Notes under the pieces: model-generated
The model's database searches: none
What the model saw: only the letters and a program-made list of their open reading frames with translations
What the model was told of the DNA's origin: nothing
Sequence record: MN850584.1
Origin: Escherichia phage arall
Length of the DNA stretch: 64,000 nt
Direction: 5' to 3' (one strand)
Made by a program: the position numbers and the translations under genes
Shown: piece after piece, positions 1 through 23,590 of the stretch
Layout of the letters: each line of letters opens with the position of its first letter
Position numbering within the stretch: position 1 is the stretch's first letter

Positions 1-784
1 AGTACGGCAGCACAGGAGAACAGATAATAGGAAGACCCTTTGCACCTGCTTCCAAAATCTTCAAATTGCTTTTACAGTTGTTGAAGTCATTATCTACTAG
101 GGGAGCAATTGCAATACTGTGACCGTCATACACAGACATATACTCACCTAAATTTTTAATAGCTGGTTTATACTGTGCATTTGGAATTTTACGTTTTATT
201 TTAACCCACTCCGCAGTAGTTAGATACTGACTATTATTTCCAACAGGTGCAGAAGGATACACTTCATACCCTGCAATTGTCAATAGTGTATCATCAAATG
301 TATTAGCTACAAGAGATAAATCAGGCTCATGGCTTGCTCCTCCAGCCCAGATAATAGGTGTGTCAGAACTACGGTCTTTTGTCAAAGTAAATTGACCTTC
401 GTCGTAAGGTAGTGCGTTTCTAATAACGACAACATTACGATTTAAATGACGAATTTTGTAAGCTAGGTATTCTGTTGTTACAGTAACCACATCTGCTAAC
501 TTAATCATCTCTACAATAGTCTTTGAGTGATTAGTAAATACGCCAGCCATATAATGTTCAGGATTAAGCGAATAAAAATCATCTAAATCAACAATAATCT
601 TAACACCTTGTGCCTTCAGGCGTTTAACTTCGTCTGATCCACGAGAATACACTCTATTAAAAACTAAAACGTCTTTCTTAGGTTTAAACGTATTTCCAGC
701 AAATGGCATTACAATACGATGGTAATCACAACCACTGCCTAACTTATTATCACACTTAAGTACAGGAGTATTAGGATTTACCAT
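1..784 (-). CDS. Glycosyltransferase-like protein, N-terminal part (gene runs off window start)
   Basis: Open minus-strand frame from ATG at 784-782 to position 1, translated by eye; segment KILEAGAKGLPIICS resembles the GT-B family 1/4 EAxAxGxPVI motif. Not in ORF track because no stop lies in window. Confidence 0.4.
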   Translation of the reverse strand, partial: MVNPNTPVLKCDNKLGSGCDYHRIVMPFAGNTFKPKKDVLVFNRVYSRGSDEVKRLKAQGVKIIVDLDDFYSLNPEHYMAGVFTNHSKTIVEMIKLADVVTVTTEYLAYKIRHLNRNVVVIRNALPYDEGQFTLTKDRSSDTPIIWAGGASHEPDLSLVANTFDDTLLTIAGYEVYPSAPVGNNSQYLTTAEWVKIKRKIPNAQYKPAIKNLGEYMSVYDGHSIAIAPLVDNDFNNCKSNLKILEAGAKGLPIICSPVLPY

Positions 785-1457
785 ATTTTTGAGCCTCCTC
801 ATAAGAGATAAAAGTTTTACCATTGCGAAGATCCTCCAGTGATTGTTTATATTGTTCCCAGTTTACACCAATCCCCTGTTCTTTCTCTTCTTTTGACAGA
901 TTCGCAAAAGGTAAAGGATTATCTCCAAACACATCGTCAGGATGGATAAACGCCATAATTCGAATAGGACATGGTACACCGAGAATGCCTCGGTTCAAAC
1001 CTGCCAGTGGAACGCGCTGAATCCACTCTGCATCTTCATATCCATAACCGTGGGTGTATGAGCGGAAATAGCCAGCTTTCTCAATAACTGCACGGGAATA
1101 CATACCAAACTGGCACATACCTAGTTCCCAAATAACCACCTCCCCTTCAATACCTTTTACTTTATCTTTAAAGTATTCAGGCATACCAAAGAAATCCCAA
1201 CCATTTTCCTTTGCCTGTTTTACAAAATATGTTTCCCACCCTGGAACAACAGGATAGCAATCATCATCAAAAATAAACCAGTAGTCATACCCTTCATCAT
1301 AAAACTTTTTCATCAGTTCATTACGGGCATATGCAACACCTTTTCGTTCACGATCATACTGTACAACAAAAGTAGCATTAGGATCAGTCACAAGATAATC
1401 TTTAAGAGGACGCTTACCTACAGTAATAACACCAACACCAATTTTTGTATTTTCCAA
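771..1457 (-). CDS. GT-A fold glycosyltransferase-like protein
   Basis: 228 aa ORF; FIFDDDC (DxD) and YGYEDAEW motifs typical of GT-A enzymes; TTG start preceded by AAGGAG. Confidence 0.55.
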   Translation of the reverse strand: MENTKIGVGVITVGKRPLKDYLVTDPNATFVVQYDRERKGVAYARNELMKKFYDEGYDYWFIFDDDCYPVVPGWETYFVKQAKENGWDFFGMPEYFKDKVKGIEGEVVIWELGMCQFGMYSRAVIEKAGYFRSYTHGYGYEDAEWIQRVPLAGLNRGILGVPCPIRIMAFIHPDDVFGDNPLPFANLSKEEKEQGIGVNWEQYKQSLEDLRNGKTFISYEEAQKYGKS

Positions 1458-1466
1458 AATAACTCC

Positions 1467-2030
1467 TTAAATAATTTTATTCATGTCTTGACAATGTAAA
1501 AGGTGTGAAACAGCTTTTCTAGGATCATCATTACCTAAACGGTAGGTGTGAAATAAATATAACCCACGTAATAAACCTAGCCTTTTGTTGTTAGCATGTA
1601 ATGCTTTAGAGAAAATTATATCAAACTGTATTGATCTTTCCTCAAAAGGAATTTCATTCCACAGACTCTTACGAAAGAGAAGAAAGAATCCTGCTAAGAT
1701 AGCATCTGTAGGTACTTCCTCTATTGAGTTTCCCCATTCTAGATGTGCTCTTTTTGCAATCTCAATGTGGTGTAATATATTCGGATCTTCACTTCTTTCA
1801 TTATTAAATAATTGATATGTTGATCCCAATCTGTTACAAGATGCACCAAGAACATCAAAATCAGGATTTGAACGGACAATTGATTCCAGCCAAGCAGGTT
1901 GTTCTGGAAGAAGAAACATTGTATCAATGTCTCTTAGGCAAATCCAACTATCTTCTGGTAAGACACTTATTGTGTCATTGATACCTTTTCCAATATCTCC
2001 AGAAAGATAGGGAGTTATGTGAAATATCAT
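1467..2030 (-). CDS. Putative glycosyltransferase (GT-A-like)
   Basis: 187 aa ORF with CLRDID DxD-like motif; third consecutive glycosyltransferase-like gene. Confidence 0.4.
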   Translation of the reverse strand: MIFHITPYLSGDIGKGINDTISVLPEDSWICLRDIDTMFLLPEQPAWLESIVRSNPDFDVLGASCNRLGSTYQLFNNERSEDPNILHHIEIAKRAHLEWGNSIEEVPTDAILAGFFLLFRKSLWNEIPFEERSIQFDIIFSKALHANNKRLGLLRGLYLFHTYRLGNDDPRKAVSHLLHCQDMNKII

Positions 2031-2087
2031 ACTCCCTCCGTATTATTACTTTAGCATTTTTAGACTAAAAAGTCCAAATGGTTTTAC

Positions 2088-2282
2088 CTATTGATTACGT
2101 TTTGCGAGTTCCATTTGGATAGCTAAACTGTGATCTCGTGCTTCCATATACTCTTTATATGTTTCATTAAGATGATCACGACAAACATCACGCAGTTTAA
2201 TCAGTTTATCTGTAGGGATACCACTAAGATCATCCCAAGATTTTACAACTTCACCAGTATCATTGATCCCAATGGTTTTCAT
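2088..2282 (-). CDS. Hypothetical protein
   Basis: 64 aa ORF co-oriented in minus-strand block. Confidence 0.4.
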   Translation of the reverse strand: MKTIGINDTGEVVKSWDDLSGIPTDKLIKLRDVCRDHLNETYKEYMEARDHSLAIQMELAKRNQ

Positions 2283-2490
2283 CTACAACCTCCTTAATTG
2301 CTACAGCACAGTTTTTGCAGATACACTGCCCTTTACCTTTAGAAATCTGGATGTAAGGTTCATTTTCATTTTCGCCCTTACGTGAGTCATATATTACAGT
2401 ATTGAAGCACACAACGCAAATATTTTTTAAGATTGTATACTTATCAACTTTCTTTTTTGTTTTAAAGTTAACTTCAATAACATCAGCCAT
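2260..2490 (-). CDS. Small Cys-rich (zinc-ribbon-like) protein
   Basis: ATG at 2490 overlaps upstream stop (ATGA); CxxC...CxxC pattern (CVVC, CICKNC). Confidence 0.45.
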   Translation of the reverse strand: MADVIEVNFKTKKKVDKYTILKNICVVCFNTVIYDSRKGENENEPYIQISKGKGQCICKNCAVAIKEVVDENHWDQ

Positions 2491-2768
2491 CAGTGTAACA
2501 CTCCCAGTATGTTGTTTTGTGACATAACCATAGAACATTCAACATTATCGTGACTACGTGAAAAACGTTCCCAAACATCTTCATCGACTCGTAAAGCTAT
2601 ACAAGGATAGACGTTATCATTGATCATTTCAATTGAATAAACATCCACATTGTCTTCGTCTTCGATGAACATCATTGCAAACTGTTCTAAATGTTTCCTA
2701 ATGTAATGTACATCCTCTTCTGTAAGACCAATAACAAGATAACTTGCAACGATAACGCCATCTTTCAT
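2490..2768 (-). CDS. Hypothetical acidic protein
   Basis: 92 aa ORF in gene block. Confidence 0.5.
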   Translation of the reverse strand: MKDGVIVASYLVIGLTEEDVHYIRKHLEQFAMMFIEDEDNVDVYSIEMINDNVYPCIALRVDEDVWERFSRSHDNVECSMVMSQNNILGVLH

Positions 2769-2778
2769 CTATATCTCC

Positions 2779-3288
2779 TTAGCGATAGAATTGATGTTCT
2801 TTGTAGCGGTACACTAGAACCATATCTTTTTCCCAGTGTGCTCTTATTGTAGATTTTTTAAAGTATAATGCTCCTTTTGTAATATCTAATGCAATTCGTA
2901 ATTCTGGAAAATGGTTATCGAGATAAAGTAGACGTTCTGCTATAGCTTTAGCGTCTTTCCACTTATCGTGTTCCATAACGTTGAATGTCTTTGTGTAAGA
3001 GAATTGTCCTTTCTGAAACAAAACTTCTTTTATAGTATCAGGGAAATATGAATCTTTAGCCCTATTCAATACTACATTACCAACAGCAGACATACCGCGC
3101 TTTCCTTGATTACGACTTTCTGCATAGATTGCACAAGCTAATAGATTTTCTTTACTATCACGCTTTGTACACTTGTGAACTACTTTAGCAGTTTTTACGT
3201 TTGCAGCTTCGGCTTGCGCCACAACAGGTGTAAATGTAAAAGCAGTTAAGGATAGTAACGCAATTGCGACAAAGGTTTTTATTGACAA
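2779..3288 (-). CDS. Secreted SleB-like cell wall hydrolase
   Basis: N-terminal signal peptide (ALLSLTAFTFTPVVAQA); ACAIYAESRNQ...VGNVVLNRAKD...QKGQFS matches cell-wall hydrolase (Hydrolase_2/SleB) signature. Confidence 0.7.
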   Translation of the reverse strand: MSIKTFVAIALLSLTAFTFTPVVAQAEAANVKTAKVVHKCTKRDSKENLLACAIYAESRNQGKRGMSAVGNVVLNRAKDSYFPDTIKEVLFQKGQFSYTKTFNVMEHDKWKDAKAIAERLLYLDNHFPELRIALDITKGALYFKKSTIRAHWEKDMVLVYRYKEHQFYR

Positions 3289-3380
3289 ACTTGCCTCCTA
3301 TTTTGTTAAACGAACTTTTATTGTAACACAGAAGAGGCTATTTTGCAAGTGGAGGGGGACTATCCCCCTCTTACACTCTG

Positions 3381-3983
3381 TTAGATATTGTAAACCTTTG
3401 TATGAGTTACTACACCATCTTCTACAAAATCAATACGTTCTTGATCCGTGACTAGTGCAGACAACACTTTAAATTTAATTTTTACACGTTCAAAAGCTGG
3501 TTGACCATCTTTAAGATAATTATGTTCGGTTGTCACTGTCTTGTTTACAAAATCAACTTTTGCTTTACCGTTTTCGCGTAGGTGGAATGTTTTTCCTGCT
3601 TTATACACAATTTCAACATTACCTTCGAGAGTAATTCCTTCAAAAAGTTCACCCTCTTCTTCATTTTCTTCGCTTTTGAACAGACGACGAAACTCTTCCA
3701 TATCAAGATAAACAACATCTTCAGAATAACTATCAGTAAGGTATGTCTTACCATCCATTAACCCGAAATATTGCCAGATCGCAGAATAAACATCACTAGT
3801 TGATCCAAGGGTATCTCTGAGTTTAGTTCCACGGATTACTTCATAAACTTCAAAATTGAAACCAGACTGCAAAGCATCAAACAGCACATCACTAACTTCT
3901 AAAGCATAATCTTCATTGTTGTCAATATCTACAAGAAAATTGCCGCTACGAATAAGTTTTTGACCTTCTAAAGTAATACTCAT
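3381..3983 (-). CDS. Hypothetical protein
   Basis: 200 aa ORF in gene block. Confidence 0.55.
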   Translation of the reverse strand: MSITLEGQKLIRSGNFLVDIDNNEDYALEVSDVLFDALQSGFNFEVYEVIRGTKLRDTLGSTSDVYSAIWQYFGLMDGKTYLTDSYSEDVVYLDMEEFRRLFKSEENEEEGELFEGITLEGNVEIVYKAGKTFHLRENGKAKVDFVNKTVTTEHNYLKDGQPAFERVKIKFKVLSALVTDQERIDFVEDGVVTHTKVYNI

Positions 3984-4035
3984 TGTTTTCTCCTCTTCTA
4001 TTTAAAATATGCGCCCCGAAGGGCACTATGATTTA

Positions 4036-4632
4036 TTACTCGAACCAATCGTCGCCAGCGCCAAACGCTTTAACTACATCATAAATGTCAAGTCCAGCTT
4101 TACCTACACCATATGCTTTCAGTTTCCATTCACTATCTTCCCGCACCAGGGAGGCAACGTGGCAAATGGTATTACCTGCAAGTTCTGGAGCCAAGAAGTC
4201 AAAATCCAGCAGTTCAACGTTACGTTCATCATCGAAGATTTTAAGGAAACCTTCGGTAGCGTGACCAAGGCGTTTCTTACCCGTTTCGTCATCAATAGTA
4301 ATTACGAATGCAATTTCCTGTGCTTCAGCAGAGATATTATCCAGTGTAACATCAATCTGCTCCATTTGTCCTACACCGTCACGAACATCTTCACCTGCAA
4401 AAGTAGAACGTTCAGGGTCAAATTTCTGTGCGTAGCATACCAGGTGGCGAGGAGACAACAGTTCCGGCAGACCAGATGCATTGTGTCGGCAAATCAGAGC
4501 ACTAACATCCAGATCCAGTTTTTCGTTAGATTTCCAAGAGAATTCCAGACGAATGCGTTTCAGTGCTGGTGCAATCTTTTTCAGAGAAACTTTTTCGCTA
4601 GAACCTTTTTTCAGGGAAATTTTCTGAGTCAT
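4036..4632 (-). CDS. TerD-domain protein (tellurite resistance TerD/TerE/KlaB family)
   Basis: ISLKKG...VSLKK N-terminus, DLDVSA, AFVITIDD and SEWKLKAYGVGKAGL segments align by eye with E. coli TerD. Confidence 0.8.
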   Translation of the reverse strand: MTQKISLKKGSSEKVSLKKIAPALKRIRLEFSWKSNEKLDLDVSALICRHNASGLPELLSPRHLVCYAQKFDPERSTFAGEDVRDGVGQMEQIDVTLDNISAEAQEIAFVITIDDETGKKRLGHATEGFLKIFDDERNVELLDFDFLAPELAGNTICHVASLVREDSEWKLKAYGVGKAGLDIYDVVKAFGAGDDWFE

Positions 4633-4704
4633 AATTTATTATCTCCTTTGTTGTTAATTTACGTTATCTATTTTACTAATCTTTTCTACAAAGTCAAGCG
4701 TTTT

Positions 4705-5499
4705 TTACGCTTTTGCTCCGAATTTTTTAACCCACTCGCCAAACTCTTCGGATAGCAGTTTATCGTAAAGTTCTTCGTCAGACAAGGACAAATCTGCAAT
4801 ACCGATAAAGTCAACGTTATCGTATTCTTTTGCCAAGTCTTTCAGGAATTTAAAGTTTGCATTACCTACACCAACCATAAACCAGTAAACAGGAGTGTTG
4901 CGGTGTTTGTTCAGCAAACTACGTACTGCTGAAGTATCCATGTTCTCCCCGTCAGTTTGGAAGAAAATCATTGCAGGAGTACGATCAACTTGTGCATCAG
5001 TATCTACAACCTGTTCTACAACAGTACGTGTAACTTCTACAAGTTCTTTTTTACCAGTTAGTTTAGCAAGGAAACCCTTAGCCGGAACTTCTTCATACTC
5101 AACGACTTCGCGTGTAATATTTTTCATAGGTACACTACCGAAGTATGTATCATAGATCTCTTGCATTACTGGAGCATAAGCTGTACCACCATTGATGCAA
5201 ACGTTAGACATACAAGAGCCGACATAATCATCATATACATCAGCCGTAGCAGGAGGCAGTTCAAAAGAAGAACTATTGAAAGCCCACATGTCAATCTGTG
5301 CATTATCATCAAACTTCATACCAAACGGCAGCAGCTTACCTACAAAATCACTAACAGTGCCATCACGATACAGCTCACACATACTACCCGAAATATCTAA
5401 GGCGCTACCGACACGAAGAACAACATCGTTAATCTTTTTCTTACGCAGAGATACGGTAAGAGTTTCTTGACGTTTTTTAAGACTGATTTTATTGGACAT
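4705..5499 (-). CDS. vWA-domain protein (TerY/TerF-like)
   Basis: MIDAS-like LDISGSM motif; TerD-like ISLKK...VSLRKK leader; adjacent to TerD gene. Confidence 0.6.
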   Translation of the reverse strand: MSNKISLKKRQETLTVSLRKKKINDVVLRVGSALDISGSMCELYRDGTVSDFVGKLLPFGMKFDDNAQIDMWAFNSSSFELPPATADVYDDYVGSCMSNVCINGGTAYAPVMQEIYDTYFGSVPMKNITREVVEYEEVPAKGFLAKLTGKKELVEVTRTVVEQVVDTDAQVDRTPAMIFFQTDGENMDTSAVRSLLNKHRNTPVYWFMVGVGNANFKFLKDLAKEYDNVDFIGIADLSLSDEELYDKLLSEEFGEWVKKFGAKA

Positions 5500-14966: not shown

Positions 14967-15437
14967 TTAGTCAGATTCCCAAATGTTGTCTTTCTTAACC
15001 CACATTCGTTGATTATCTGAACCTCTATAACGTTTCGTTGTTGGTTGATTCATATCATACTTACCATCTATCACTATGTCAACCAGTTTTTTAATTTTCT
15101 CTGGAATTTCTTCAAAAAGATATCCTGTATATAAGACAATATCTTTTTTGTTTCCAAAACAATCTCTTACCTTCTCAAGAACATACTCTACAGTGTCAAT
15201 GTTCTCTTTGTCAAGAGGTTCACCACCTAAAACTGTTAATCCTTTAATGAAAGGTCGAGATAAATCTTCCAAGATAAGATCTAATGTTTCAGCAGTGAAC
15301 TCTTGTCCGTAGTTATACGACCAGGCTTTCTGGTTAAAGCAGCCACGGCAACCGTGGCTACAACCGCTCACCCACAAAGAGCATCTTACACCGTCACCGT
15401 TGAGCATGTCAACAGGTTCATATCCGGCGTAATTCAA
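14967..15437 (-). CDS. nrdG: Anaerobic ribonucleotide reductase activating protein (radical SAM)
   Basis: CSHGCRGC cysteine motif, about 156 aa, immediately downstream of nrdD. Confidence 0.85.
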   Translation of the reverse strand: MNYAGYEPVDMLNGDGVRCSLWVSGCSHGCRGCFNQKAWSYNYGQEFTAETLDLILEDLSRPFIKGLTVLGGEPLDKENIDTVEYVLEKVRDCFGNKKDIVLYTGYLFEEIPEKIKKLVDIVIDGKYDMNQPTTKRYRGSDNQRMWVKKDNIWESD

Positions 15438-16375
15438 AAGTGTTTCTCCCTTTCTAGTACCTCTTGCATTTTACCTTTATTATAAGGGCGAGAGTTAGGG
15501 GCAGAAAGGTATCCTGACACTCTTCTGATCACAGATATGGATTCTTCTTCGTGATTACCGCAACTTGGACACTCGAAGCCTTTAGCTGTTGCCTTAAATT
15601 CACCATGAAAACCACATTTGAAACACTGATCTACAGGTTGGTTCACGCCAAAATAAGGGATTTTGTTGTAGGCATAATCTACAAGAGTTTCCAGTGCTTG
15701 CAAGTTATTTTTAAGGTTCGGTGTTTCTACATAACCTATGTTCCCACCATTACTAATTTGTGCAAAACCTTCCTCATAATCCCACTTTTGGAACGGGGTA
15801 GTGTGCATCCATACAGGTTGATGGAAAGAGTTTGTCAAGTAGTCACGATCAATAGAGCCAGGATAGCGATCATTTAACGCTTTGGCAAATTTATAGCACA
15901 AGGATTCTGCTGGTGTTCCATACAAACTAAAAGCTAAACCAGAACGTTCTTTAAATGTGCAACAGATATCCTTCATATATTGAAGGATGTTTTTACCCAT
16001 TGCTTTTGGATTGGTGTTACCTGGGTATAAAATCTCCATAGCTTCTGCTAAACCTACATAACCGATACTAATAGAGGCATAACCACCTTCGAATAGCTTA
16101 CCAATCTCTTCATTAGCTTCTAGTCGAGCTAAAGCCCCTTCCATAAACAATGTAGGGTTTTGAGATGCTTTGGTATGTCTAATACGGTTAACACGTAGCA
16201 TATGTGCCTTATACGCCATCTCCATATGTTGTTCCAACAGTTCAGTAAATAAGATGCCCTTTTCACGGGACTCTGCTGCAATGATAGGTAAGTTTAAAGA
16301 AACTACGCCTAAGTTGAAACGACCATCATATTTTTCACCTTGCTCTGTTGCATAGTATGACAAGAAACTTCTACA
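15434..16375 (-). CDS. nrdD: Anaerobic ribonucleoside-triphosphate reductase, exon 2
   Basis: Begins CRSFL..., contains C-terminal zinc-ribbon cysteines (CFKCG...CPSCG) and ends with the RVSGYL glycyl-radical-region motif; upstream part of the track ORF is intron sequence. Confidence 0.85.
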   Translation of the reverse strand, partial: CRSFLSYYATEQGEKYDGRFNLGVVSLNLPIIAAESREKGILFTELLEQHMEMAYKAHMLRVNRIRHTKASQNPTLFMEGALARLEANEEIGKLFEGGYASISIGYVGLAEAMEILYPGNTNPKAMGKNILQYMKDICCTFKERSGLAFSLYGTPAESLCYKFAKALNDRYPGSIDRDYLTNSFHQPVWMHTTPFQKWDYEEGFAQISNGGNIGYVETPNLKNNLQALETLVDYAYNKIPYFGVNQPVDQCFKCGFHGEFKATAKGFECPSCGNHEEESISVIRRVSGYLSAPNSRPYNKGKMQEVLEREKHF

Positions 16376-17144
16376 CATTATGTTCAAAGTGGCTCGCAAG
16401 GCCACTCCCGCACCATTACGTGCTGCTGCATGTCACCATGCAGATCAGACTATATCTTCATGCTTAAAGCATGTCTACCATTTGGGGTGTCATAGGCTTA
16501 CACCCTACGCTGCTACATTCATCACAGCTAGTCGTTAGGCATTTCGTAACAGAACTCATAATCATAATTATTTGGTGCTCCGCGCTTTAAGATTGCAGAT
16601 ATTCTTTTTCTGTCCAACCCTAAAGCGTCAGCACAACATCTCAGACTTTTAAAGTAAAAAACTTCACCAGTAGCCTTATGAGTAGCTTTTACACTGTGAC
16701 ACCTTGTGTAGAAAGCATAACAGTTATTATCGTAACCCTCTTGCGTGTTGTCTGGACAAGATCCCCACTCAAGATTGTATACACTGTTGTCTTTCCTATT
16801 GTCACCTTTATGCTTCACATAAGGTAAATTGTCTGGATTGGGTAAAAACGCTTCAGCTACAAGTCTGTGCACCCGAAAGCAAACAGTTTTCTTGTTTTTA
16901 CGTATTCTGACAAGTTGGTATCCTGTGTTTATTTCTTCCCACGAGCGAAGGATTCTTTCATCCTTATACCTGGTACAATAAACATTTCCAAGCTCGTCAA
17001 TTTCATACCCTTCAAAATCACGAATTTGTTTTCTCATACCAGTACCCCCTTCTTCTGTGTTGGGAGTTCTGTTACGTTTAGCACGGGATTGTCTCGTTGA
17101 GAGTTCCCCCGTTTAGGCAGATTTTACATGAGCAGTTATAGTTT
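16376..17144 (-). mobile_element. Group I intron interrupting nrdD, carrying an HNH endonuclease ORF
   Basis: Exon 1 frame stops 2 codons after ...VTSMG; exon 2 resumes CRSFL; intron has the group I core recalled from T4 td-type introns (CTAAACGGGG...GACAATCCCGTGCTAAA), exon ends in U, intron ends in G. Confidence 0.75.
16528..17037 (-). CDS. HNH homing endonuclease (intron-encoded)
   Basis: VHRLVAEAF...VKHKGDNRKDNSVYNLEW matches the HNH_3 motif; lies inside the nrdD intron. Confidence 0.8.
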   Translation of the reverse strand: MRKQIRDFEGYEIDELGNVYCTRYKDERILRSWEEINTGYQLVRIRKNKKTVCFRVHRLVAEAFLPNPDNLPYVKHKGDNRKDNSVYNLEWGSCPDNTQEGYDNNCYAFYTRCHSVKATHKATGEVFYFKSLRCCADALGLDRKRISAILKRGAPNNYDYEFCYEMPND

Positions 17145-18002
17145 ACCCATGCTTGTGACGCGACCATCTGAAGATCCTGTAACTTCTTTGTTTAAAGGTA
17201 CAGAGATAAAATCAGGATAAATGCGTTCAGCACAACACTCCATTGCCAGTTGCTTCAAATCATAGTTTGGATCGCCAGCTTTCATGTTAACACCATCTTC
17301 CAAGAAGAAGATAACTTTAGGAAACACAGGAGTTACCCTATCTTTTCCTAATCCTTGTTTGTGCACCATTAGGTAGTTTTTAGTGATCATTCTACCAAAA
17401 GCAGAGGTATCCAAACCTAAACTAATTGTTATAAAAGGTGACTGACCATTTACACTCATTAGAGTGTTCACCTGGTAGATTAAAGTTTGCATTGCATCAT
17501 AGACCTGTTTATCTACCATACGCATAGCAATATCATAATCGCCAACATCGGCATATATTTTATTAAAACTTGCTTTAACGTATTGACTAAGCCCAGTATC
17601 AACATGTGCACAAGTTTGTCCACCATATTGGCTAGAAGCTACTGCTTGAATAATTTGAGTTAGGACAGTAGTCGCTACACCGATAGATTTTGGTTTTTCA
17701 ATATGTGCATTACCAATACGGAAACCGTTCTCAAGCATATCTTGGTAATTTACCAGGCAACAATTAGTTAAAGGTGAGAGTAAATAATCTAAATCGTGAA
17801 TGTGACCATACCCACTTTTATGCCATTCTGCCAGATCTTCCGGTAAAATATGGGTCATTGCCATGTGCTTGCTTAGGATACCTGCTAGTAAGTCTCGGTG
17901 AGTATTAACAATCATTGCAGGTTTGTTTGCATTTTCACGAGTAAATTCTTCGGATGTTTGTTCGAGGAATCCGATTACATCCTCATATAGTTTTTGGGTC
18001 AT
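17145..18002 (-). CDS. nrdD: Anaerobic ribonucleoside-triphosphate reductase, exon 1
   Basis: 286 aa N-terminal NrdD portion ending ...EVTGSSDGRVTSMG; exon1+exon2 about 600 aa, typical NrdD size. Confidence 0.85.
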
Positions 18003-20337: not shown

Positions 20338-23112
20338 TTAGTTTACCAGTTTATTTATATCTGGTAAAAGATTTATTTCACCTAAGAAATCACCTTCACC
20401 TTCCTCTAGCCAACTCTCATATGCTTGTGCATGATTATAGTTACCATCAAAAGAATCTGCAACAAATTTTTCTACAGTTTTTCGAGATGTGCCAGCGCCA
20501 AATACACCAAGTTTAATACCATTGATCGGTAAAGTGGTGCTTGTGGGTACTTTCTCTGTTGCAACACGGTTGATATCTATAATCTCCTGTACGGTTGTAT
20601 TCCATTGTAAGCATTTAACACAACGGGTGTGCGCTACATACAGTAGGTTTCGCTCTGCCTCTTCCAGTCCTACCCATTCACCAGTCTTTTTATCATAGTT
20701 GGAAGGAAAATCATTAGCAACAATAACCTGATCCCACTCCAAACCTTTAGACTTGTGTGCTGTAGTAAGTGTGACTTTTGCTGTAGGAGAATTTCTATGC
20801 GTTCTAAGTGTATGTGCTATAGTGTTTGCCTTACCAGAAACTACGATGTTTAACAAGCGTTTAGCATCTGGATCAGCCTCTGCACACTCAACAAATTCAT
20901 CCCAGTCTGCGTAAGGTAATACAGTTTCATGTTTTACTTTCTCAATATCTCCTCTCCGAAGAGCATTAACACTATCTACCATAGAGATAAAATCCCTGGT
21001 ATCTACGTTAATAATAATTTCTTCCCCATCTGCAATACGATCCATTGCCTCCATAAGCAAGGTTAAATTCTTGCGAAAGATGATAGTGTAAGGTTTTGTA
21101 TAGTCTACAACATCTGATTTGTAGCTACCTACTACAGTATCAAAGCCTTTACCAACCAAAGGGTGACGCAAAGGTTCTTTATCGCTTAAAATCATATTGG
21201 CAATGTTTGCCACTTTGGGGCCAAAACGGAAGCAAGCAGTTAATGGAAGCTCTGCCCCATACTTAGCTGTTTCAATCATCATATTAGAGCTACCTCTAAA
21301 TTGATAAATGCAGTTGTGGCTAAGAATTTCATTGCCAAAGAAGTTAGCAGTATCCTCTACTTCAATATCATAATAGATACCCTCACTATCTACAATGTCC
21401 ACAATCTCTTCTGCCGTTACAGTATCACCATCTTTTACCAACACAGACATGCCTTTAAACAAACCCGCTGCCGGAATTAAGTTATATTTGGCACTGTTCA
21501 CAGAGGACATGCATTCTTTTAAAGATGCAAACGGAACTATTTCAAGGATCTTTTGTGCAAAACTCAATGCTTCACGATAAGAATTGAAATATTTACGTAC
21601 ACGGTAACGACCTTCCAATTTAGCAGCACTTACGCTTACACCTGCTTTAATCAGTGAAGAATAGATCGGCATTTCACTTTCTGTCCACTCAAAACTAACT
21701 TGTGTTCCTTTACAACTTTGTGCTCGCAAAGTCACTGTTAGCATTTTTCTTTCATCTACTGCACAATTGATGCTGTGCCAGTGTGGATAAGCAAAATGAT
21801 AATCTTTATCCTCTAAAAGTTTAAAACCATTTTGTCCGAATTGTTCAAAGATGTTATTGATCCTTTCTTGATTAATGCCGCGTGAACTTGCTTCAAATAC
21901 ACAAGTAGGAATGCCATATTGTAAACTGTATGCCATTTCTTTTTCCATAGCAGCTTCACGGTTTTCAACAATATCCAACACCCATAATTTCTGTGCTTTT
22001 TCAGAACGTGTACGTTGCCCCAGTTTAGAAAAACCTTCTTTATCATCGAATTTGTTAGTGATCCCTACTCGGAAACCTAAATCTTTCCTCCACATTAGGT
22101 ATACCACCATCTGATCATCTTTCAGAACATAGGATGAAGCCCAAATACGATGGTTATGTGTCATATCTAAAGTTTTACCTGTGGCAGTAATAATATTCCT
22201 ACCTTTTGTACGTGTAGATAAAGTCTTATTTGTTACTTTTCTAAATGTAACTTTACCATTAGAGTAAGACTCTACCTTATCACCGATTTGCAGGTCTTTC
22301 ATTGTAACCTGACCATTCTCGGTATTAAGTACCGTGTTTTCCGACACACATTGGAATTCATCGCCCACTACCACAATTTGTTTTGCAGATTTAGCATTTC
22401 GCAGAATAGACAAGAATGCAGGGTTAACATCCTGGAATTCATCACCAAAAATAATATCATAACCAAGATCAGCACCAGACAATTCAAACAATTTTACATA
22501 GGTGTCATGCGTCATCAAAGTATCTGTATTAGGATCAATGCGCTCTCGCCACAATTGTTTTGCATACTTAACTACTTCTGTAATTAGTTTGTGTTCGTTA
22601 ATACCTTTTCTTTTAATATCTGCAAGATGTACACTAGGAAAATGTTTACGGCTGATAAAAGGATCATCCGAAAATTCAAACTTACCTACGGTTTGTTTGA
22701 TCATTAAACCAATCATAGCACGAGTTAACAGTGTTTTCCCTCGTTTATCAATAAGATTATTAATCTTAAATTTCTTTGCTATCTCGCTACCTGTACCTGC
22801 AACGTTAACATACTGTCCTTCTGGTCGTGACAGTTTTGCACGTAAACGATGATCCAGGAATTGATAGCAAATAGAATGCAATGTACGGCATTCTACATTT
22901 AGTGGCATCTTACGTCGTGCTTCTTCTGCCATGCTTTTATTGAAAGCTAAGTAAAGAATGCGATCTTCTGTACTGTTAGCCAGCAAATAAAGTGTTGACG
23001 TTTTGCCTGATCCAGATTTAGCTTGGATAGTTAAAAAGCGATGGTCTGGAAAAGCCTCCTTAATAGCTGTTTGCTCTTCTGTTGGAGTGAAGCTCAACTC
23101 TTTCTTAGCCAT
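20338..23112 (-). CDS. UvrD/Rep-like SF1 DNA helicase interrupted by an intein
   Basis: Walker A AKSGSGKTS, motif II FGDEFQD, motif III VGDEFQ|CIYQFRG split by insert, motif VI TTAHKSKGLEWD; likely ATG start at 23112. Confidence 0.8.
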   Translation of the reverse strand: MAKKELSFTPTEEQTAIKEAFPDHRFLTIQAKSGSGKTSTLYLLANSTEDRILYLAFNKSMAEEARRKMPLNVECRTLHSICYQFLDHRLRAKLSRPEGQYVNVAGTGSEIAKKFKINNLIDKRGKTLLTRAMIGLMIKQTVGKFEFSDDPFISRKHFPSVHLADIKRKGINEHKLITEVVKYAKQLWRERIDPNTDTLMTHDTYVKLFELSGADLGYDIIFGDEFQDVNPAFLSILRNAKSAKQIVVVGDEFQCVSENTVLNTENGQVTMKDLQIGDKVESYSNGKVTFRKVTNKTLSTRTKGRNIITATGKTLDMTHNHRIWASSYVLKDDQMVVYLMWRKDLGFRVGITNKFDDKEGFSKLGQRTRSEKAQKLWVLDIVENREAAMEKEMAYSLQYGIPTCVFEASSRGINQERINNIFEQFGQNGFKLLEDKDYHFAYPHWHSINCAVDERKMLTVTLRAQSCKGTQVSFEWTESEMPIYSSLIKAGVSVSAAKLEGRYRVRKYFNSYREALSFAQKILEIVPFASLKECMSSVNSAKYNLIPAAGLFKGMSVLVKDGDTVTAEEIVDIVDSEGIYYDIEVEDTANFFGNEILSHNCIYQFRGSSNMMIETAKYGAELPLTACFRFGPKVANIANMILSDKEPLRHPLVGKGFDTVVGSYKSDVVDYTKPYTIIFRKNLTLLMEAMDRIADGEEIIINVDTRDFISMVDSVNALRRGDIEKVKHETVLPYADWDEFVECAEADPDAKRLLNIVVSGKANTIAHTLRTHRNSPTAKVTLTTAHKSKGLEWDQVIVANDFPSNYDKKTGEWVGLEEAERNLLYVAHTRCVKCLQWNTTVQEIIDINRVATEKVPTSTTLPINGIKLGVFGAGTSRKTVEKFVADSFDGNYNHAQAYESWLEEGEGDFLGEINLLPDINKLVN
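21313..22350 (-). mobile_element. Intein (about 346 aa) within helicase motif III
   Basis: Insert starts with Cys (CVSENTVL...), has block B TxxH (MTHNH) and ends ...FFGNEILSHN followed by Cys; flanks rejoin as GDEFQ-CIYQFRG. Confidence 0.7.
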
Positions 23113-23113
23113 T

Positions 23114-23590
23114 TCAACCTCTCTTAATTTGTTTAACAAGCATAGGAACAAAATCTCGTTTTAAAATTTGTTCAATAATATGATCAGGTAGCTGTTGGAA
23201 ATTATAATTAAAAGCTACTGTCTCACCTTTAGGTGTTTCTACCCGCACATATAACATGTTACGAAGTTTATCCACTTGTGCTGTGTATTCTAAACCATGT
23301 AATTGATGCATTGCAAACATCAAATCATCAGTTTCAGTTTGGAATCTATCATTTGCTTGCATTAAGGACAAGGTAAAAGGTAGATTTTCCCTAAGAGCCA
23401 CCTTCTTAGGAACTAGTGAAGGAAAATACTCACCAATAACTTCCTGTGTAAGCTGGATACACTCTTTTTCAAGTTGGTTTTGTTCCTTAAGTTCACAAAC
23501 ACTTTTTTGTAAAGTGTTAACCTCTTTTTGCAAAGCTGCTAGTTGAGCACTTAACTTTCTTTTTTGATTACGACCAAAACGTTTAGACAT
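23114..23590 (-). CDS. Hypothetical coiled-coil protein
   Basis: 158 aa ORF. Confidence 0.5.
   Translation of the reverse strand: MSKRFGRNQKRKLSAQLAALQKEVNTLQKSVCELKEQNQLEKECIQLTQEVIGEYFPSLVPKKVALRENLPFTLSLMQANDRFQTETDDLMFAMHQLHGLEYTAQVDKLRNMLYVRVETPKGETVAFNYNFQQLPDHIIEQILKRDFVPMLVKQIKRG

What the first reader, a model, noticed from the sequence alone, without database searches (positions are those of the whole stretch)
20338..23112. Intein inserted in helicase motif III of a UvrD-like helicase
The SF1 helicase ORF is interrupted after VVVGDEFQ by an insert of about 346 aa that starts with Cys, carries a TxxH block and ends in HN followed by Cys; removing it restores the canonical motif III GDEFQ-CIYQFRG. 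The middle of the insert may be a degenerate homing endonuclease domain. Together with the nrdD intron this marks a genome colonised by self-splicing elements in essential genes.
Basis: partly seen in the sequence, partly recalled or inferred. Interest (0 to 1): 0.55.

Follow-up and report, generated by a model that had tools for sequence, protein, structure and literature searches.

The report
Mobile intein in phage helicase gene
The helicase gene of this phi92-like coliphage really is interrupted by a self-splicing, still-mobile intein, which sister phages in GenBank already annotate as such; what is less ordinary is its conserved middle domain, which matches no catalogued endonuclease family and looks like a GIY-YIG nuclease.

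Summary
Gene 20338..23112 (-) encodes a 924-aa precursor, and a 346-aa insert (window 21313..22350) lies after Gln254 of SF1 helicase motif III (VVVGDEFQ|C...SHN|CIYQFRG).

The window is a phi92-like Justusliebigvirus. GenBank records of near-identical BASEL phages already annotate an "intein-containing UvrD / Rep family helicase precursor", so the core finding is already known.

- **Not degenerate.** The middle domain is under strong purifying selection and has invariant residues across a family of more than 1000 protein clusters.
- **Recently mobile.** Extein differences cluster at the insertion site. A Phapecoctavirus carries the same intein with a one-sided 266-nt tract of donor flank.
- **Unclassified domain.** It matches no Pfam, PHROG or NCBIfam family. 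Its predicted beta-beta-alpha-beta-alpha core and invariant Tyr, Arg and Glu resemble GIY-YIG nucleases, a type the papers read here do not report in-frame in inteins. That assignment is suggestive, not proven.

Free-standing derivatives without splicing residues sit beside intact helicase genes.

The parts
20338..23112 (-). Precursor gene: intein-containing UvrD/Rep-like (FBH1-like) SF1 helicase, 924 aa plus stop
   Evidence: ORF listing and start-codon analysis. It is 99% identical in DNA to phi92-like phages, where the same span is annotated as a CDS.
22351..23112 (-). N-extein, aa 1-254: Walker A (AKSGSGKT), motif II (GDEFQD) and the first half of motif III (VVVGDEFQ)
   Evidence: Pfam UvrD-helicase and AAA_19 matches on the spliced protein. 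The alignment with FBH1 and UvrD runs through the junction.
21313..22350 (-). Intein, 346 aa (1038 nt), class-1 signature: C1, T64xxH67, D328, H345-N346, +1 Cys
22126..22350 (-). Hint N-terminal lobe (intein aa 1-75, blocks A and B)
   Evidence: Matches to TIGR01445, Pfam Hint and Intein_splicing. The profile aligns with the gp41-1 intein.
21775..22125 (-). Putative endonuclease catalytic subdomain (intein aa 76-192). Predicted beta-beta-alpha-beta-alpha core; invariant Y84, G92, R94, G96, R113, E138; GIY-YIG-like
21460..21774 (-). Second alpha/beta subdomain of the insert (intein aa 193-297), presumed DNA-binding module; conserved R.R..F..Y..A..FA motif
   Evidence: AF2 models. Only weak, mixed fold matches such as SUI1, BMC shell, KH and ACT-like proteins. 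pN/pS 0.19. The role is inferred.
21313..21459 (-). Hint C-terminal lobe (intein aa 298-346, blocks F and G, ends ...NEILSHN)
   Evidence: TIGR01443 above its cut-off. Profile matches to C-terminal halves of solved inteins.
20338..21312 (-). C-extein, aa 601-924 plus stop. Begins with the +1 Cys and the rest of motif III (CIYQFRG); holds the UvrD_C domain
   Evidence: Pfam UvrD_C and UvrD_C_2. Junction analysis.
22351..22377 (-). 5' flank of the insertion site that differs from intein-free alleles (donor-type co-conversion tract, positions -27 to -1)
   Evidence: 25 of the 40 extein differences from phage alia lie between -27 and +50. All 5 intein-plus Justusliebigvirus alleles share one flank type and all 5 intein-free alleles share another.
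21262..21312 (-). 3' flank co-conversion tract (positions 0 to +50), including the Ser-to-Cys change at +1
   Evidence: In Phapecoctavirus DIJ07P2 the donor-type tract runs to +266.

Best explanation
This is a mobile class-1 intein of 346 aa, inserted in frame between Gln254 and the following Cys of motif III (GDxxQ|S/C-IYxFRG) of the phage's UvrD/Rep-like SF1 helicase.

**Splicing (inferred from conserved residues).** The 104.6-kDa precursor is translated whole. Cys1 makes the N-S acyl shift, the +1 Cys attacks the thioester, Asn346 cyclises, and the 65.3-kDa helicase is ligated with an intact motif III. A 39.3-kDa intein is released.

**The middle of the intein (aa 76-297)** is an in-frame, two-part module inserted into the Hint fold:
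- a catalytic subdomain with a GIY-YIG-like beta-beta-alpha-beta-alpha core (invariant Y84, R94-x-G96, R113, E138);
- an alpha/beta subdomain that probably helps bind DNA.

**Homing (inferred).** In mixed infections this module is thought to cut intein-free helicase alleles near motif III. Repair from the intein-carrying genome copies in the intein plus some flanking extein sequence.

**What is shown here:** the anatomy, the family, the precise presence/absence polymorphism, the co-conversion tracts, transfer between genera, and purifying selection. **What is inferred:** actual splicing, nuclease activity, and the GIY-YIG assignment.
For: **Intein identity**
- C1, T64xxH67, H345-N346 and +1 Cys are present.
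- TIGR01443 scores above its cut-off. Intein_splicing and TIGR01445 match just below theirs, and Pfam Hint is just above its cut-off.
- A 25-sequence family profile hits solved inteins, for example gp41-1 at 2e-17.

**Host site**
- The spliced protein matches UvrD-helicase as one stretch across the junction.
- It aligns through the junction with FBH1 (1.7e-31) and UvrD.
- Of 91 full-length family members, all but three sit at GDxxQ|(S/C)IYxFRG.

**Mobility**
- About 36-37 phi92-like records carry the intein and about 17-18 lack it. The intein-free alleles examined are exactly 1038 nt shorter.
- 25 of 40 extein differences from phage alia lie within -27..+50 of the site. The flank type tracks intein presence in 10 of 10 alleles.
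- Phapecoctavirus DIJ07P2 carries a copy 4 of 1038 nt different from the phi92 copy, in an otherwise Phapecoctavirus-type gene. Donor-type bases occupy 86 of 87 informative sites from -1 to +266.

**The middle domain is functional**
- pN/pS is 0.07 for the intein. Residues 76-192 show 0 nonsynonymous against 54 synonymous differences.
- Nine columns are invariant across relatives 26-50% identical to the window copy.
- Free-standing homologues have lost C1 and the terminal Asn but keep this domain. They lie directly after intact UvrD-like helicase genes.

**GIY-YIG likeness**
- The model has the beta-beta-alpha-beta-alpha order, with Y84 in strand 1, R94 and G96 in strand 2, R113 in helix 1 and E138 in helix 2.
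- In the domain-only search, six GIY-YIG entries are in the top 35 of 48,164 chains.
- Foldseek against BFVD gives probabilities of 0.91-0.96 for phage GIY-YIG enzymes.
- hhalign places VYLMYR on UvrC GVYRMY, RVG on YVG, and E138 on the UvrC catalytic Glu.
Against: - No experiment here shows splicing or DNA cleavage.
- The GIY-YIG assignment is weak at sequence level. No Pfam, PHROG or NCBIfam hit was found for 25 members or for the consensus.
- The domain profile beats 98.4% of shuffles for UvrC and about 93% for YhbQ, and shows no signal for I-TevI or Slx1.
- The second motif reads R-V-G rather than Y-I-G.
- In phages, recombination alone can spread an insert without a nuclease, although the sharply bounded tracts argue otherwise.
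Confidence: 0.85

Rival explanations
1. It is an intein, but the middle region is a decayed, inactive remnant of a homing endonuclease. The element would persist only by vertical descent and general recombination.
For: No known endonuclease family is detected by Pfam, PHROGs or NCBIfam. Many inteins do carry decayed endonucleases (general knowledge; mini-inteins are noted in bioRxiv 10.1101/2025.01.02.630785).
Against: Residues 76-192 show 0 nonsynonymous against 54 synonymous differences, and the whole intein has pN/pS 0.07. Nine residues are invariant across distant relatives. The domain model is confident, pLDDT 91.9. There is recent transfer between genera with a co-conversion tract. Free-standing derivatives keep this domain after losing the splicing residues.
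Confidence: 0.07
2. It is a mobile intein whose middle domain is an active nuclease or DNA-binding module, but of a fold class unrelated to GIY-YIG. The structural matches would then be a coincidence of a common small alpha/beta topology.
Confidence: 0.2
3. The insert is not an intein but a lineage-specific accessory domain that stays in the mature helicase, or it has made the gene a pseudogene.
For: The phi92 annotators described only 'discontinuous domains'. Splicing was not tested here.
Confidence: 0.02
4. The intein has also been co-opted as a switch. With Cys at both position 1 and +1, splicing could be held back by a disulfide or by stress, so that helicase activity appears only under certain conditions. 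This does not exclude the best explanation.
For: All six phage intein-carrying alleles examined have Cys at +1, whereas the intein-free alleles have Ser. Across the family most +1 residues are Ser. Inteins cluster in ATPase motifs, and this has been read as a hint of function (PMC4760082).
Against: There is no direct evidence. The Cys arrives with the co-converted donor flank. About a third of sister phages do without the intein.
Confidence: 0.1

Closest known systems
Intein annotated in BASEL coliphages PaulScherrer (Bas60, MZ501100) and JohannJBalmer (MZ501084): 'intein-containing UvrD / Rep family helicase precursor'
   Same: It is the same element at the same site. The gene is 97.6-98.8% identical in DNA and the intein is 99.4% identical in protein to the PaulScherrer copy.
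   Different: The GenBank feature ends one codon later, so it includes the +1 Cys: L001 3973-5013 against 3976-5013 here. The records give no endonuclease type, and no experiment was found in the papers searched. Most sister records call the gene 'DNA helicase' or 'hypothetical protein'.
UvrD-family helicase inteins of bacteria and phages (16 UvrD inteins counted in PMC4760082; Bacillus phage CampHawk UvrD-like helicase intein in PMC8785237)
   Same: An intein in a conserved ATPase motif of an SF1 repair or recombination helicase, with intein-free homologues next door.
   Different: Whether those sit at the same motif III position, or carry the same middle domain, was not checked here. The family found here holds at least 1167 cluster representatives, nearly all at GDxxQ|S/C.
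GIY-YIG homing endonucleases (I-TevI, Seg proteins) and GIY-YIG repair nucleases (UvrC N-terminal domain, SLX1)
   Same: The predicted beta-beta-alpha-beta-alpha core, a Tyr in strand 1, x-x-Gly in strand 2, an Arg in helix 1 and a Glu in helix 2. The architecture is bipartite, with catalytic and DNA-binding parts. The one-sided co-conversion fits cleavage away from the insertion site.
   Different: There is no significant profile match. The second motif is R-V-G rather than Y-I-G. The domain is embedded in frame inside a Hint domain rather than in an intron or a free-standing gene. PMC1564403 (2006) and PMC2677866 (2009) state that GIY-YIG enzymes were not known in inteins.
Canonical LAGLIDADG inteins (PI-SceI, PI-PfuI) and HNH inteins
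   Same: The overall plan is the same: a Hint splicing domain with an endonuclease inserted between blocks B and F, spread by homing.
Yeast HO endonuclease (a free-standing nuclease derived from an intein; PMC3384342)
   Same: The free-standing relatives found here (P0069, P0053, P0056, P0061, P0094, P0271, P0001) keep Hint-like flanks plus the middle domain but lack the splicing nucleophile and the terminal Asn.
   Different: The nuclease type differs. They lie next to their presumed target, an intact helicase gene, and look like selfish free-standing homing genes rather than a host function.

Membership tests
Intein (Hint-domain protein-splicing element, class 1) | Nucleophile (Cys or Ser) as first residue | tested here: met
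   Cys1. Invariant in the 25-sequence alignment.
Intein (Hint-domain protein-splicing element, class 1) | Block B TxxH | tested here: met
   T64-H-N-H67. H67 is invariant in the family, whose consensus is SPNH.
Intein (Hint-domain protein-splicing element, class 1) | C-terminal His-Asn followed by a Cys, Ser or Thr at +1 | tested here: met
   H345-N346, then Cys. TIGR01443 scores 20 bits against a cut-off of 15.6.
Intein (Hint-domain protein-splicing element, class 1) | Hint fold | tested here: met
Intein (Hint-domain protein-splicing element, class 1) | In-frame insertion in a conserved host motif, with intein-free homologues that have the motif unbroken | tested here: met
   The alia, Nernie, JLBYU50, KKE7M and 92CQ alleles are exactly 1038 nt shorter and read GDEYQSIYQFRG.
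Intein (Hint-domain protein-splicing element, class 1) | Protein splicing actually occurs | not testable with these tools
   Needs expression and detection of the 65.3-kDa and 39.3-kDa products.
Mobile (homing) intein | Patchy presence at one site among close relatives, and transfer between lineages | tested here: met
   About 36-37 intein-plus against about 17-18 intein-free phi92-like records. A near-identical copy sits in Phapecoctavirus DIJ07P2.
Mobile (homing) intein | Co-conversion of flanking extein sequence | tested here: met
   Differences cluster at -27..+50. The donor-type tract in DIJ07P2 runs from -1 to +266, 86 of 87 informative sites.
Mobile (homing) intein | Site-specific endonuclease activity on the empty allele | not testable with these tools
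   Needs a cleavage assay or a phage cross.
GIY-YIG nuclease superfamily | Domain of about 100 aa with a beta-beta-alpha-beta-alpha core similar to solved members | tested here: inconclusive
GIY-YIG nuclease superfamily | 'GIY' motif Tyr in the first strand | tested here: met
   V-Y84-L. Y84 is invariant and lies in predicted strand 81-88.
GIY-YIG nuclease superfamily | 'YIG' motif (Tyr-x-Gly) in the second strand | tested here: not met
   The motif reads R94-V-G96. The Gly is invariant, but the Tyr is replaced by an invariant Arg.
GIY-YIG nuclease superfamily | Conserved Arg in the first helix and catalytic Glu in the second helix | tested here: inconclusive
   R113 (helix 110-116) and E138 (helix 131-145) are invariant. 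hhalign puts E138 on the UvrC catalytic Glu. Three-dimensional equivalence could not be checked without coordinates.
GIY-YIG nuclease superfamily | Significant sequence or profile match to PF01541 or related models | tested here: not met
   No hit for 25 members or for the consensus at E up to 10. Against shuffles: UvrC p about 0.016, YhbQ about 0.07, I-TevI and Slx1 no signal.
LAGLIDADG or HNH intein endonucleases | LAGLIDADG or HNH motifs, Pfam match or fold | tested here: not met
SF1 UvrD/Rep/PcrA-like helicase (host protein) | Walker A, motif II DExQD, motif III GDxxQxIYxFRG and the UvrD_C domain | tested here: met
   PF00580 scores 65.9 bits (cut-off 23), PF13245 45 bits, PF13361 42.7 bits. 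FBH1 at 1.7e-31; UvrD aligns across motifs II-III.

The most novel reading that the evidence does not exclude
The middle domain may define a large, uncatalogued family of intein endonucleases with a divergent GIY-YIG-type catalytic core fused in frame inside a Hint domain.

The papers read here report only LAGLIDADG and HNH as in-frame intein endonucleases. They state that GIY-YIG enzymes were unknown in inteins.

The family would be specialised on motif III of SF1 helicases, with offshoots in motif II and in DNA methyltransferase genes. It would still be moving between coliphage genera. It would also have repeatedly given rise to free-standing 'ex-intein' homing genes parked beside intact helicase genes.
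Probability: 0.4. Interest if true: 0.55.

Novelty: already known. Interest (0 to 1): 0.35.

Why it matters
As an intein call this is housekeeping. It confirms an annotation that exists for a few sister phages, and it could correct about 30 GenBank records that call the gene 'DNA helicase' or 'hypothetical protein'. A 2024 paper (PMC11162368) still states that no inteins have been reported in E. coli or coliphages, so the case deserves to be better known.

Three things make it more useful than routine:
- **Natural pairs.** Intein-plus and intein-free phages about 98% identical, all growing on E. coli K-12, make homing, co-conversion and any fitness cost directly testable in crosses.
- **A caught transfer.** The move from Justusliebigvirus into Phapecoctavirus, with a one-sided 266-nt tract, is an unusually clean footprint of a recent homing event.
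- **A possible new endonuclease type.** If the middle domain is a GIY-YIG-type enzyme, it adds a third in-frame endonuclease type to inteins. It would also be a compact new scaffold of splicing domain plus nuclease, with free-standing derivatives that show how such elements leave their host gene.

Tried and rejected
- **Family scans of the middle domain.** Pfam, PHROGs and NCBIfam scans of the intein, the middle domain, 25 family members and consensus sequences found no endonuclease family.
- **PDB sequence search.** A profile search of PDB sequences found only the Hint halves.
- **The search for homologous proteins.** The middle domain alone returned 1 hit, and the 25-sequence profile returned 3. 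Exhaustive phmmer over the representative library with the whole 346-aa intein found 1167. The word-indexed search is therefore not a measure of rarity here.
- **Building a GIY-YIG profile from YhbQ.** The hits were all at least 75% identical, so the profile was too shallow. hhalign aligned only the GIY..YIG hairpin.
- **hhalign against single sequences.** I-TevI gave nothing. UvrC gave an in-register but weak alignment.
- **Shuffle test.** An hhalign-based test timed out. The hmmsearch version gave only marginal support.
- **Unavailable library.** Foldseek against AFDB50 was not available.
- **Rfam.** At gathering thresholds Rfam found nothing in the window. The nrdD insert gave a group I intron hit only at a relaxed threshold.
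- **Out-of-frame or antisense endonuclease ORF inside the intein**, as described for actinophage inteins. Rejected: alternative-frame ORFs in 21313..22350 are at most 79 aa, and the in-frame domain is the conserved one.
- **Accessory-domain and pseudogene readings.** Rejected on the evidence listed under the rival explanations.
Full report
**1. What is in the window**

The window is 97-99% identical in DNA to phi92-like E. coli myophages (Justusliebigvirus, Stephanstirmvirinae).

The ORF 20338..23151 (-) has its likely start at the ATG at 23112. That ATG follows a GAGAGG ribosome-binding site and lies one base after the stop of the upstream gene. It is the start annotated in sister phages. The product is 924 aa.

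After VVVGDEFQ (Gln254) comes a 346-aa segment (window 21313..22350). It starts with Cys, carries T64-H-N-H67, and ends in H345-N346, followed by CIYQFRG. Calculated masses are 104.6 kDa (precursor), 65.3 kDa (ligated exteins) and 39.3 kDa (insert).

**2. It is an intein in motif III of an SF1 helicase**

With the insert removed:
- The protein matches Pfam UvrD-helicase as a single stretch spanning the junction (residues 23-270, 65.9 bits), plus AAA_19 and UvrD_C.
- It aligns through the junction with human FBH1 (E 1.7e-31) and with UvrD structures. GDEFQ-CIYQFRG lies on FBH1 GDPHQQIYTFRG and on UvrD GDPDQSIYKFRG.

The insert on its own:
- It matches TIGR01443 above its cut-off. Intein_splicing and TIGR01445 match just below theirs, and Pfam Hint is just above its cut-off.
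- A profile of 25 family members hits solved inteins: gp41-1 at 2e-17, plus PhoCDC21-1, NpuDnaB, Ssp DnaB and the Mtu RecA intein (PI-MtuI).

Every class-1 splicing residue is present and conserved in the family.

**3. Intein-free alleles and already-existing annotation**

Among phi92-like records, about 36-37 carry the insert and about 17-18 lack it.

In alia, Nernie, JLBYU50, KKE7M and 92CQ the gene is 1737 nt, exactly 1038 nt shorter, and reads VVVVGDEYQSIYQFRG.

GenBank records of the BASEL phages PaulScherrer and JohannJBalmer already carry 'intein-containing UvrD / Rep family helicase precursor' with mat_peptide features. The BASEL paper says inteins were delimited by comparative genomics (PMC8594841). 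Phage vB_EcoM_ZYD is annotated likewise.

The phi92 record itself only notes 'discontinuous domains'. Most other records say 'DNA helicase' or 'hypothetical protein'. A 2024 paper still writes that no inteins are reported in coliphages (PMC11162368).

The BASEL intein feature runs one codon further at its C-terminal end than splicing chemistry dictates, so it includes the +1 Cys.

The core finding is thus correct but already known.

**4. The element is, or very recently was, mobile**

- *Clustered differences.* Between the window's exteins and the alia allele there are 40 nucleotide differences in 1737 nt. Of these, 25 lie between -27 and +50 of the insertion site. They include Ser to Cys at +1.
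- *Flank type tracks the intein.* All five intein-carrying Justusliebigvirus alleles share one flank type and all five intein-free alleles share the other. The intein-linked flank matches neither the intein-free Justusliebigvirus sequence nor the Phapecoctavirus ukendt sequence. It therefore came in with the intein from another donor.
- *Transfer between genera.* Phapecoctavirus DIJ07P2 (OZ035771) carries a copy that differs at 4 of 1038 nt from the phi92 copy. Its helicase gene is otherwise Phapecoctavirus-type; genes of the two genera are only about 77% identical. At sites that tell the two lineages apart, DIJ07P2 switches to the Justusliebigvirus state at 86 of 87 sites from -1 to +266, and is Phapecoctavirus-type elsewhere.

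This is the footprint expected of homing by double-strand-break repair. The one-sidedness hints that the break is made 3' of the insertion site; that step is inference.

**5. The middle domain is not degenerate**

The six pairwise comparisons among four phage copies (counts summed, so not independent) gave:

| Region (intein aa) | pN/pS | Nonsyn. / syn. differences |
|---|---|---|
| Whole intein (1-346) | 0.07 | 40 / 145 |
| Middle, first subdomain (76-192) | 0.00 | 0 / 54 |
| Middle, second subdomain (193-297) | 0.19 | 26 / 39 |
| Exteins | 0.02-0.11 | not tabulated |

An exhaustive phmmer search of 1.84 billion cluster representatives found 1167 relatives at E<=1e-3, 498 at <=1e-10 and 124 at <=1e-30. 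Of 91 full-length copies, all but three sit at GDxxQ|(S/C)IYxFRG. The exceptions (P0059, P0065, P0073) lie elsewhere, two of them in or just after motif II.

Related copies also occur in:
- Klebsiella phage KP13-16 (60% identical). Its helicase additionally has a LAGLIDADG-type intein in the Walker A loop.
- An uncultured jumbo phage, and DNA methyltransferase genes of Streptococcus suis prophages.

Across 25 members that are 26-50% identical to the window copy, Y84, M86, G92, R94, G96, R113, W123, E138 and P189 are invariant.

**6. What the middle domain is**

No Pfam, PHROG or NCBIfam model matches it, whether as the window sequence, 25 members or the consensus. No LAGLIDADG or HNH signature is detected.

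The domain-only model is confident (pLDDT 91.9). It shows two subdomains.

*First subdomain.* Its order of elements is strand 81-88, strand 92-98, helix 110-116, strand 121-128, helix 131-145, then two more helices. That is the order of the GIY-YIG core. Y84 lies in strand 1, R94-V-G96 in strand 2, R113 in helix 1 and E138 in helix 2.

Structural matches to GIY-YIG enzymes:
- Foldseek against BFVD returns several phage GIY-YIG endonucleases at probability 0.91-0.96, though at E about 0.1.
- hhalign places VYLMYR on UvrC GVYRMY, RVG on YVG, and E138 on the UvrC catalytic Glu. It places the hairpin on YhbQ LYLIRT..LYTGIT.

Points against the assignment:
- Sequence statistics are marginal: p about 0.016 for UvrC, 0.07 for YhbQ, and no signal for I-TevI or Slx1.
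- The Tyr of the YIG motif is replaced by Arg.
- Catalytic residues could not be superposed, because coordinates are not exposed.

I therefore call it GIY-YIG-like, with about 0.65 confidence, and do not file it as a member.

The literature read here says GIY-YIG enzymes were not known in inteins (PMC1564403, 2006; PMC2677866, 2009). A 2025 survey describes only LAGLIDADG and HNH as in-frame intein endonucleases; its discussion also names GIY-YIG among intein-associated types, citing the older papers (bioRxiv 10.1101/2025.01.02.630785).

*Second subdomain (aa 193-297).* It has no informative match. A DNA-binding role is inferred only from the bipartite design of homing enzymes.

**7. Free-standing derivatives**

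Several relatives are intein-sized ORFs of 302-366 aa: P0069, P0053, P0056, P0061, P0094, P0124, P0271 and P0001. They lack Cys1 and the terminal Asn, and block B is often degraded, but they keep the middle-domain motifs.

- P0069 starts 13 nt after an intact 485-aa UvrD-like helicase gene. Its motif III reads GDDRQAIYGFRG, with Ala at +1, so that site could not support splicing.
- P0001 likewise follows the 3' end of a helicase gene.
- P0271 lies next to an Mrr_cat/nSTAND3 gene.

Keeping the middle domain after splicing is lost argues that the domain is the selected, working part. This parallels yeast HO, which derives from a LAGLIDADG intein (PMC3384342).

**8. Mechanism proposed**

The precursor is translated and the intein splices out through the class-1 pathway (C1, +1 Cys, N346). 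This restores motif III, including the conserved Gln next to the junction; by my recollection, not checked here, that Gln contacts the ATP gamma-phosphate in PcrA and UvrD.

During co-infection the free intein, or the precursor, cuts intein-free helicase alleles near motif III. Recombinational repair then copies in the intein together with tens to hundreds of nt of donor flank.

Shown here: the structure prediction, family, polymorphism, co-conversion, transfer and selection. Inferred: splicing, cleavage, the position of the cut, and the nuclease chemistry.

**9. Verdict**

The idea of a 'degenerate' endonuclease is not. As a discovery it is already in GenBank for sister phages, so novelty is low.

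The unclassified, probably GIY-YIG-like endonuclease module, its free-standing offshoots and the clean homing footprint between genera are the parts worth a specialist's time.

Noticed in passing
window 15434..18002 (-): The anaerobic ribonucleotide reductase gene nrdD is split into 17136..18002 (288 aa) and 15434..16405 (323 aa) by an insert of about 730 nt. The insert holds a 169-aa HNH_3/I-HmuI-like ORF (16528..17037) and a sub-threshold group I intron match at 16426..16533 (39.3 bits, gathering score 50, with the AUGAAGAUAUAGUCU core). In phage PaulScherrer nrdD is one uninterrupted 1830-nt CDS, so this element is polymorphic too.
   Followed up: partly
L007 (Phapecoctavirus DIJ07P2, OZ035771) 1501-2538 and flanks: The same intein (4 of 1038 nt different from the phi92 copy) sits in a Phapecoctavirus-type helicase gene, with a donor-type tract from -1 to +266 nt on the 3' side only. 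This is a recent transfer between genera.
   Followed up: yes
L006 (Klebsiella phage KP13-16, OP617741) 740-4336: This 1198-aa 'hypothetical protein' is a UvrD-like helicase with two inteins. One is LAGLIDADG-type, inside the Walker A loop (GTGK|...THN|TST). The other belongs to the family studied here (60% identical) and sits in motif III (GDKHQ|C...SHN|CIYGWRG).
   Followed up: partly
L015 4001-5014 (P0069); L005 510-1418 (P0001); L014 4001-5074 (P0271): Free-standing, intein-derived ORFs keep the middle domain but lack Cys1 and the terminal Asn. Two lie directly downstream of intact or 3'-terminal UvrD-like helicase genes, one of which has Ala at the +1 position of motif III. A third lies beside an Mrr_cat/nSTAND3 gene.
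   Followed up: partly
L001 (PaulScherrer, MZ501100) 3973-5013: The GenBank mat_peptide 'intein' is 1041 nt, one codon longer at its C-terminal end than the 1038-nt element. It therefore includes the +1 Cys, which splicing chemistry assigns to the C-extein.
   Followed up: yes
phage records MG065639, MG065645, MG065656, MG065689: Four records named 'Campylobacter phage' with host C. jejuni are 99% identical over this gene to E. coli phi92-like phages. The host label looks doubtful.
   Followed up: no
Streptococcus suis prophage records, e.g. KX077896 32029-32703; BFVD A0A8S5TZY8: Hint-N plus the same middle-domain type (29% identical over intein aa 1-213) occurs inside adenine DNA methyltransferase genes. 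The endonuclease family is therefore not confined to helicases.
   Followed up: no
window 20338..23112 spliced product: The best solved-structure match of the spliced helicase is human F-box DNA helicase 1 (FBH1, E 1.7e-31), far ahead of bacterial UvrD (E about 1e-5 to 1e-4).
   Followed up: no
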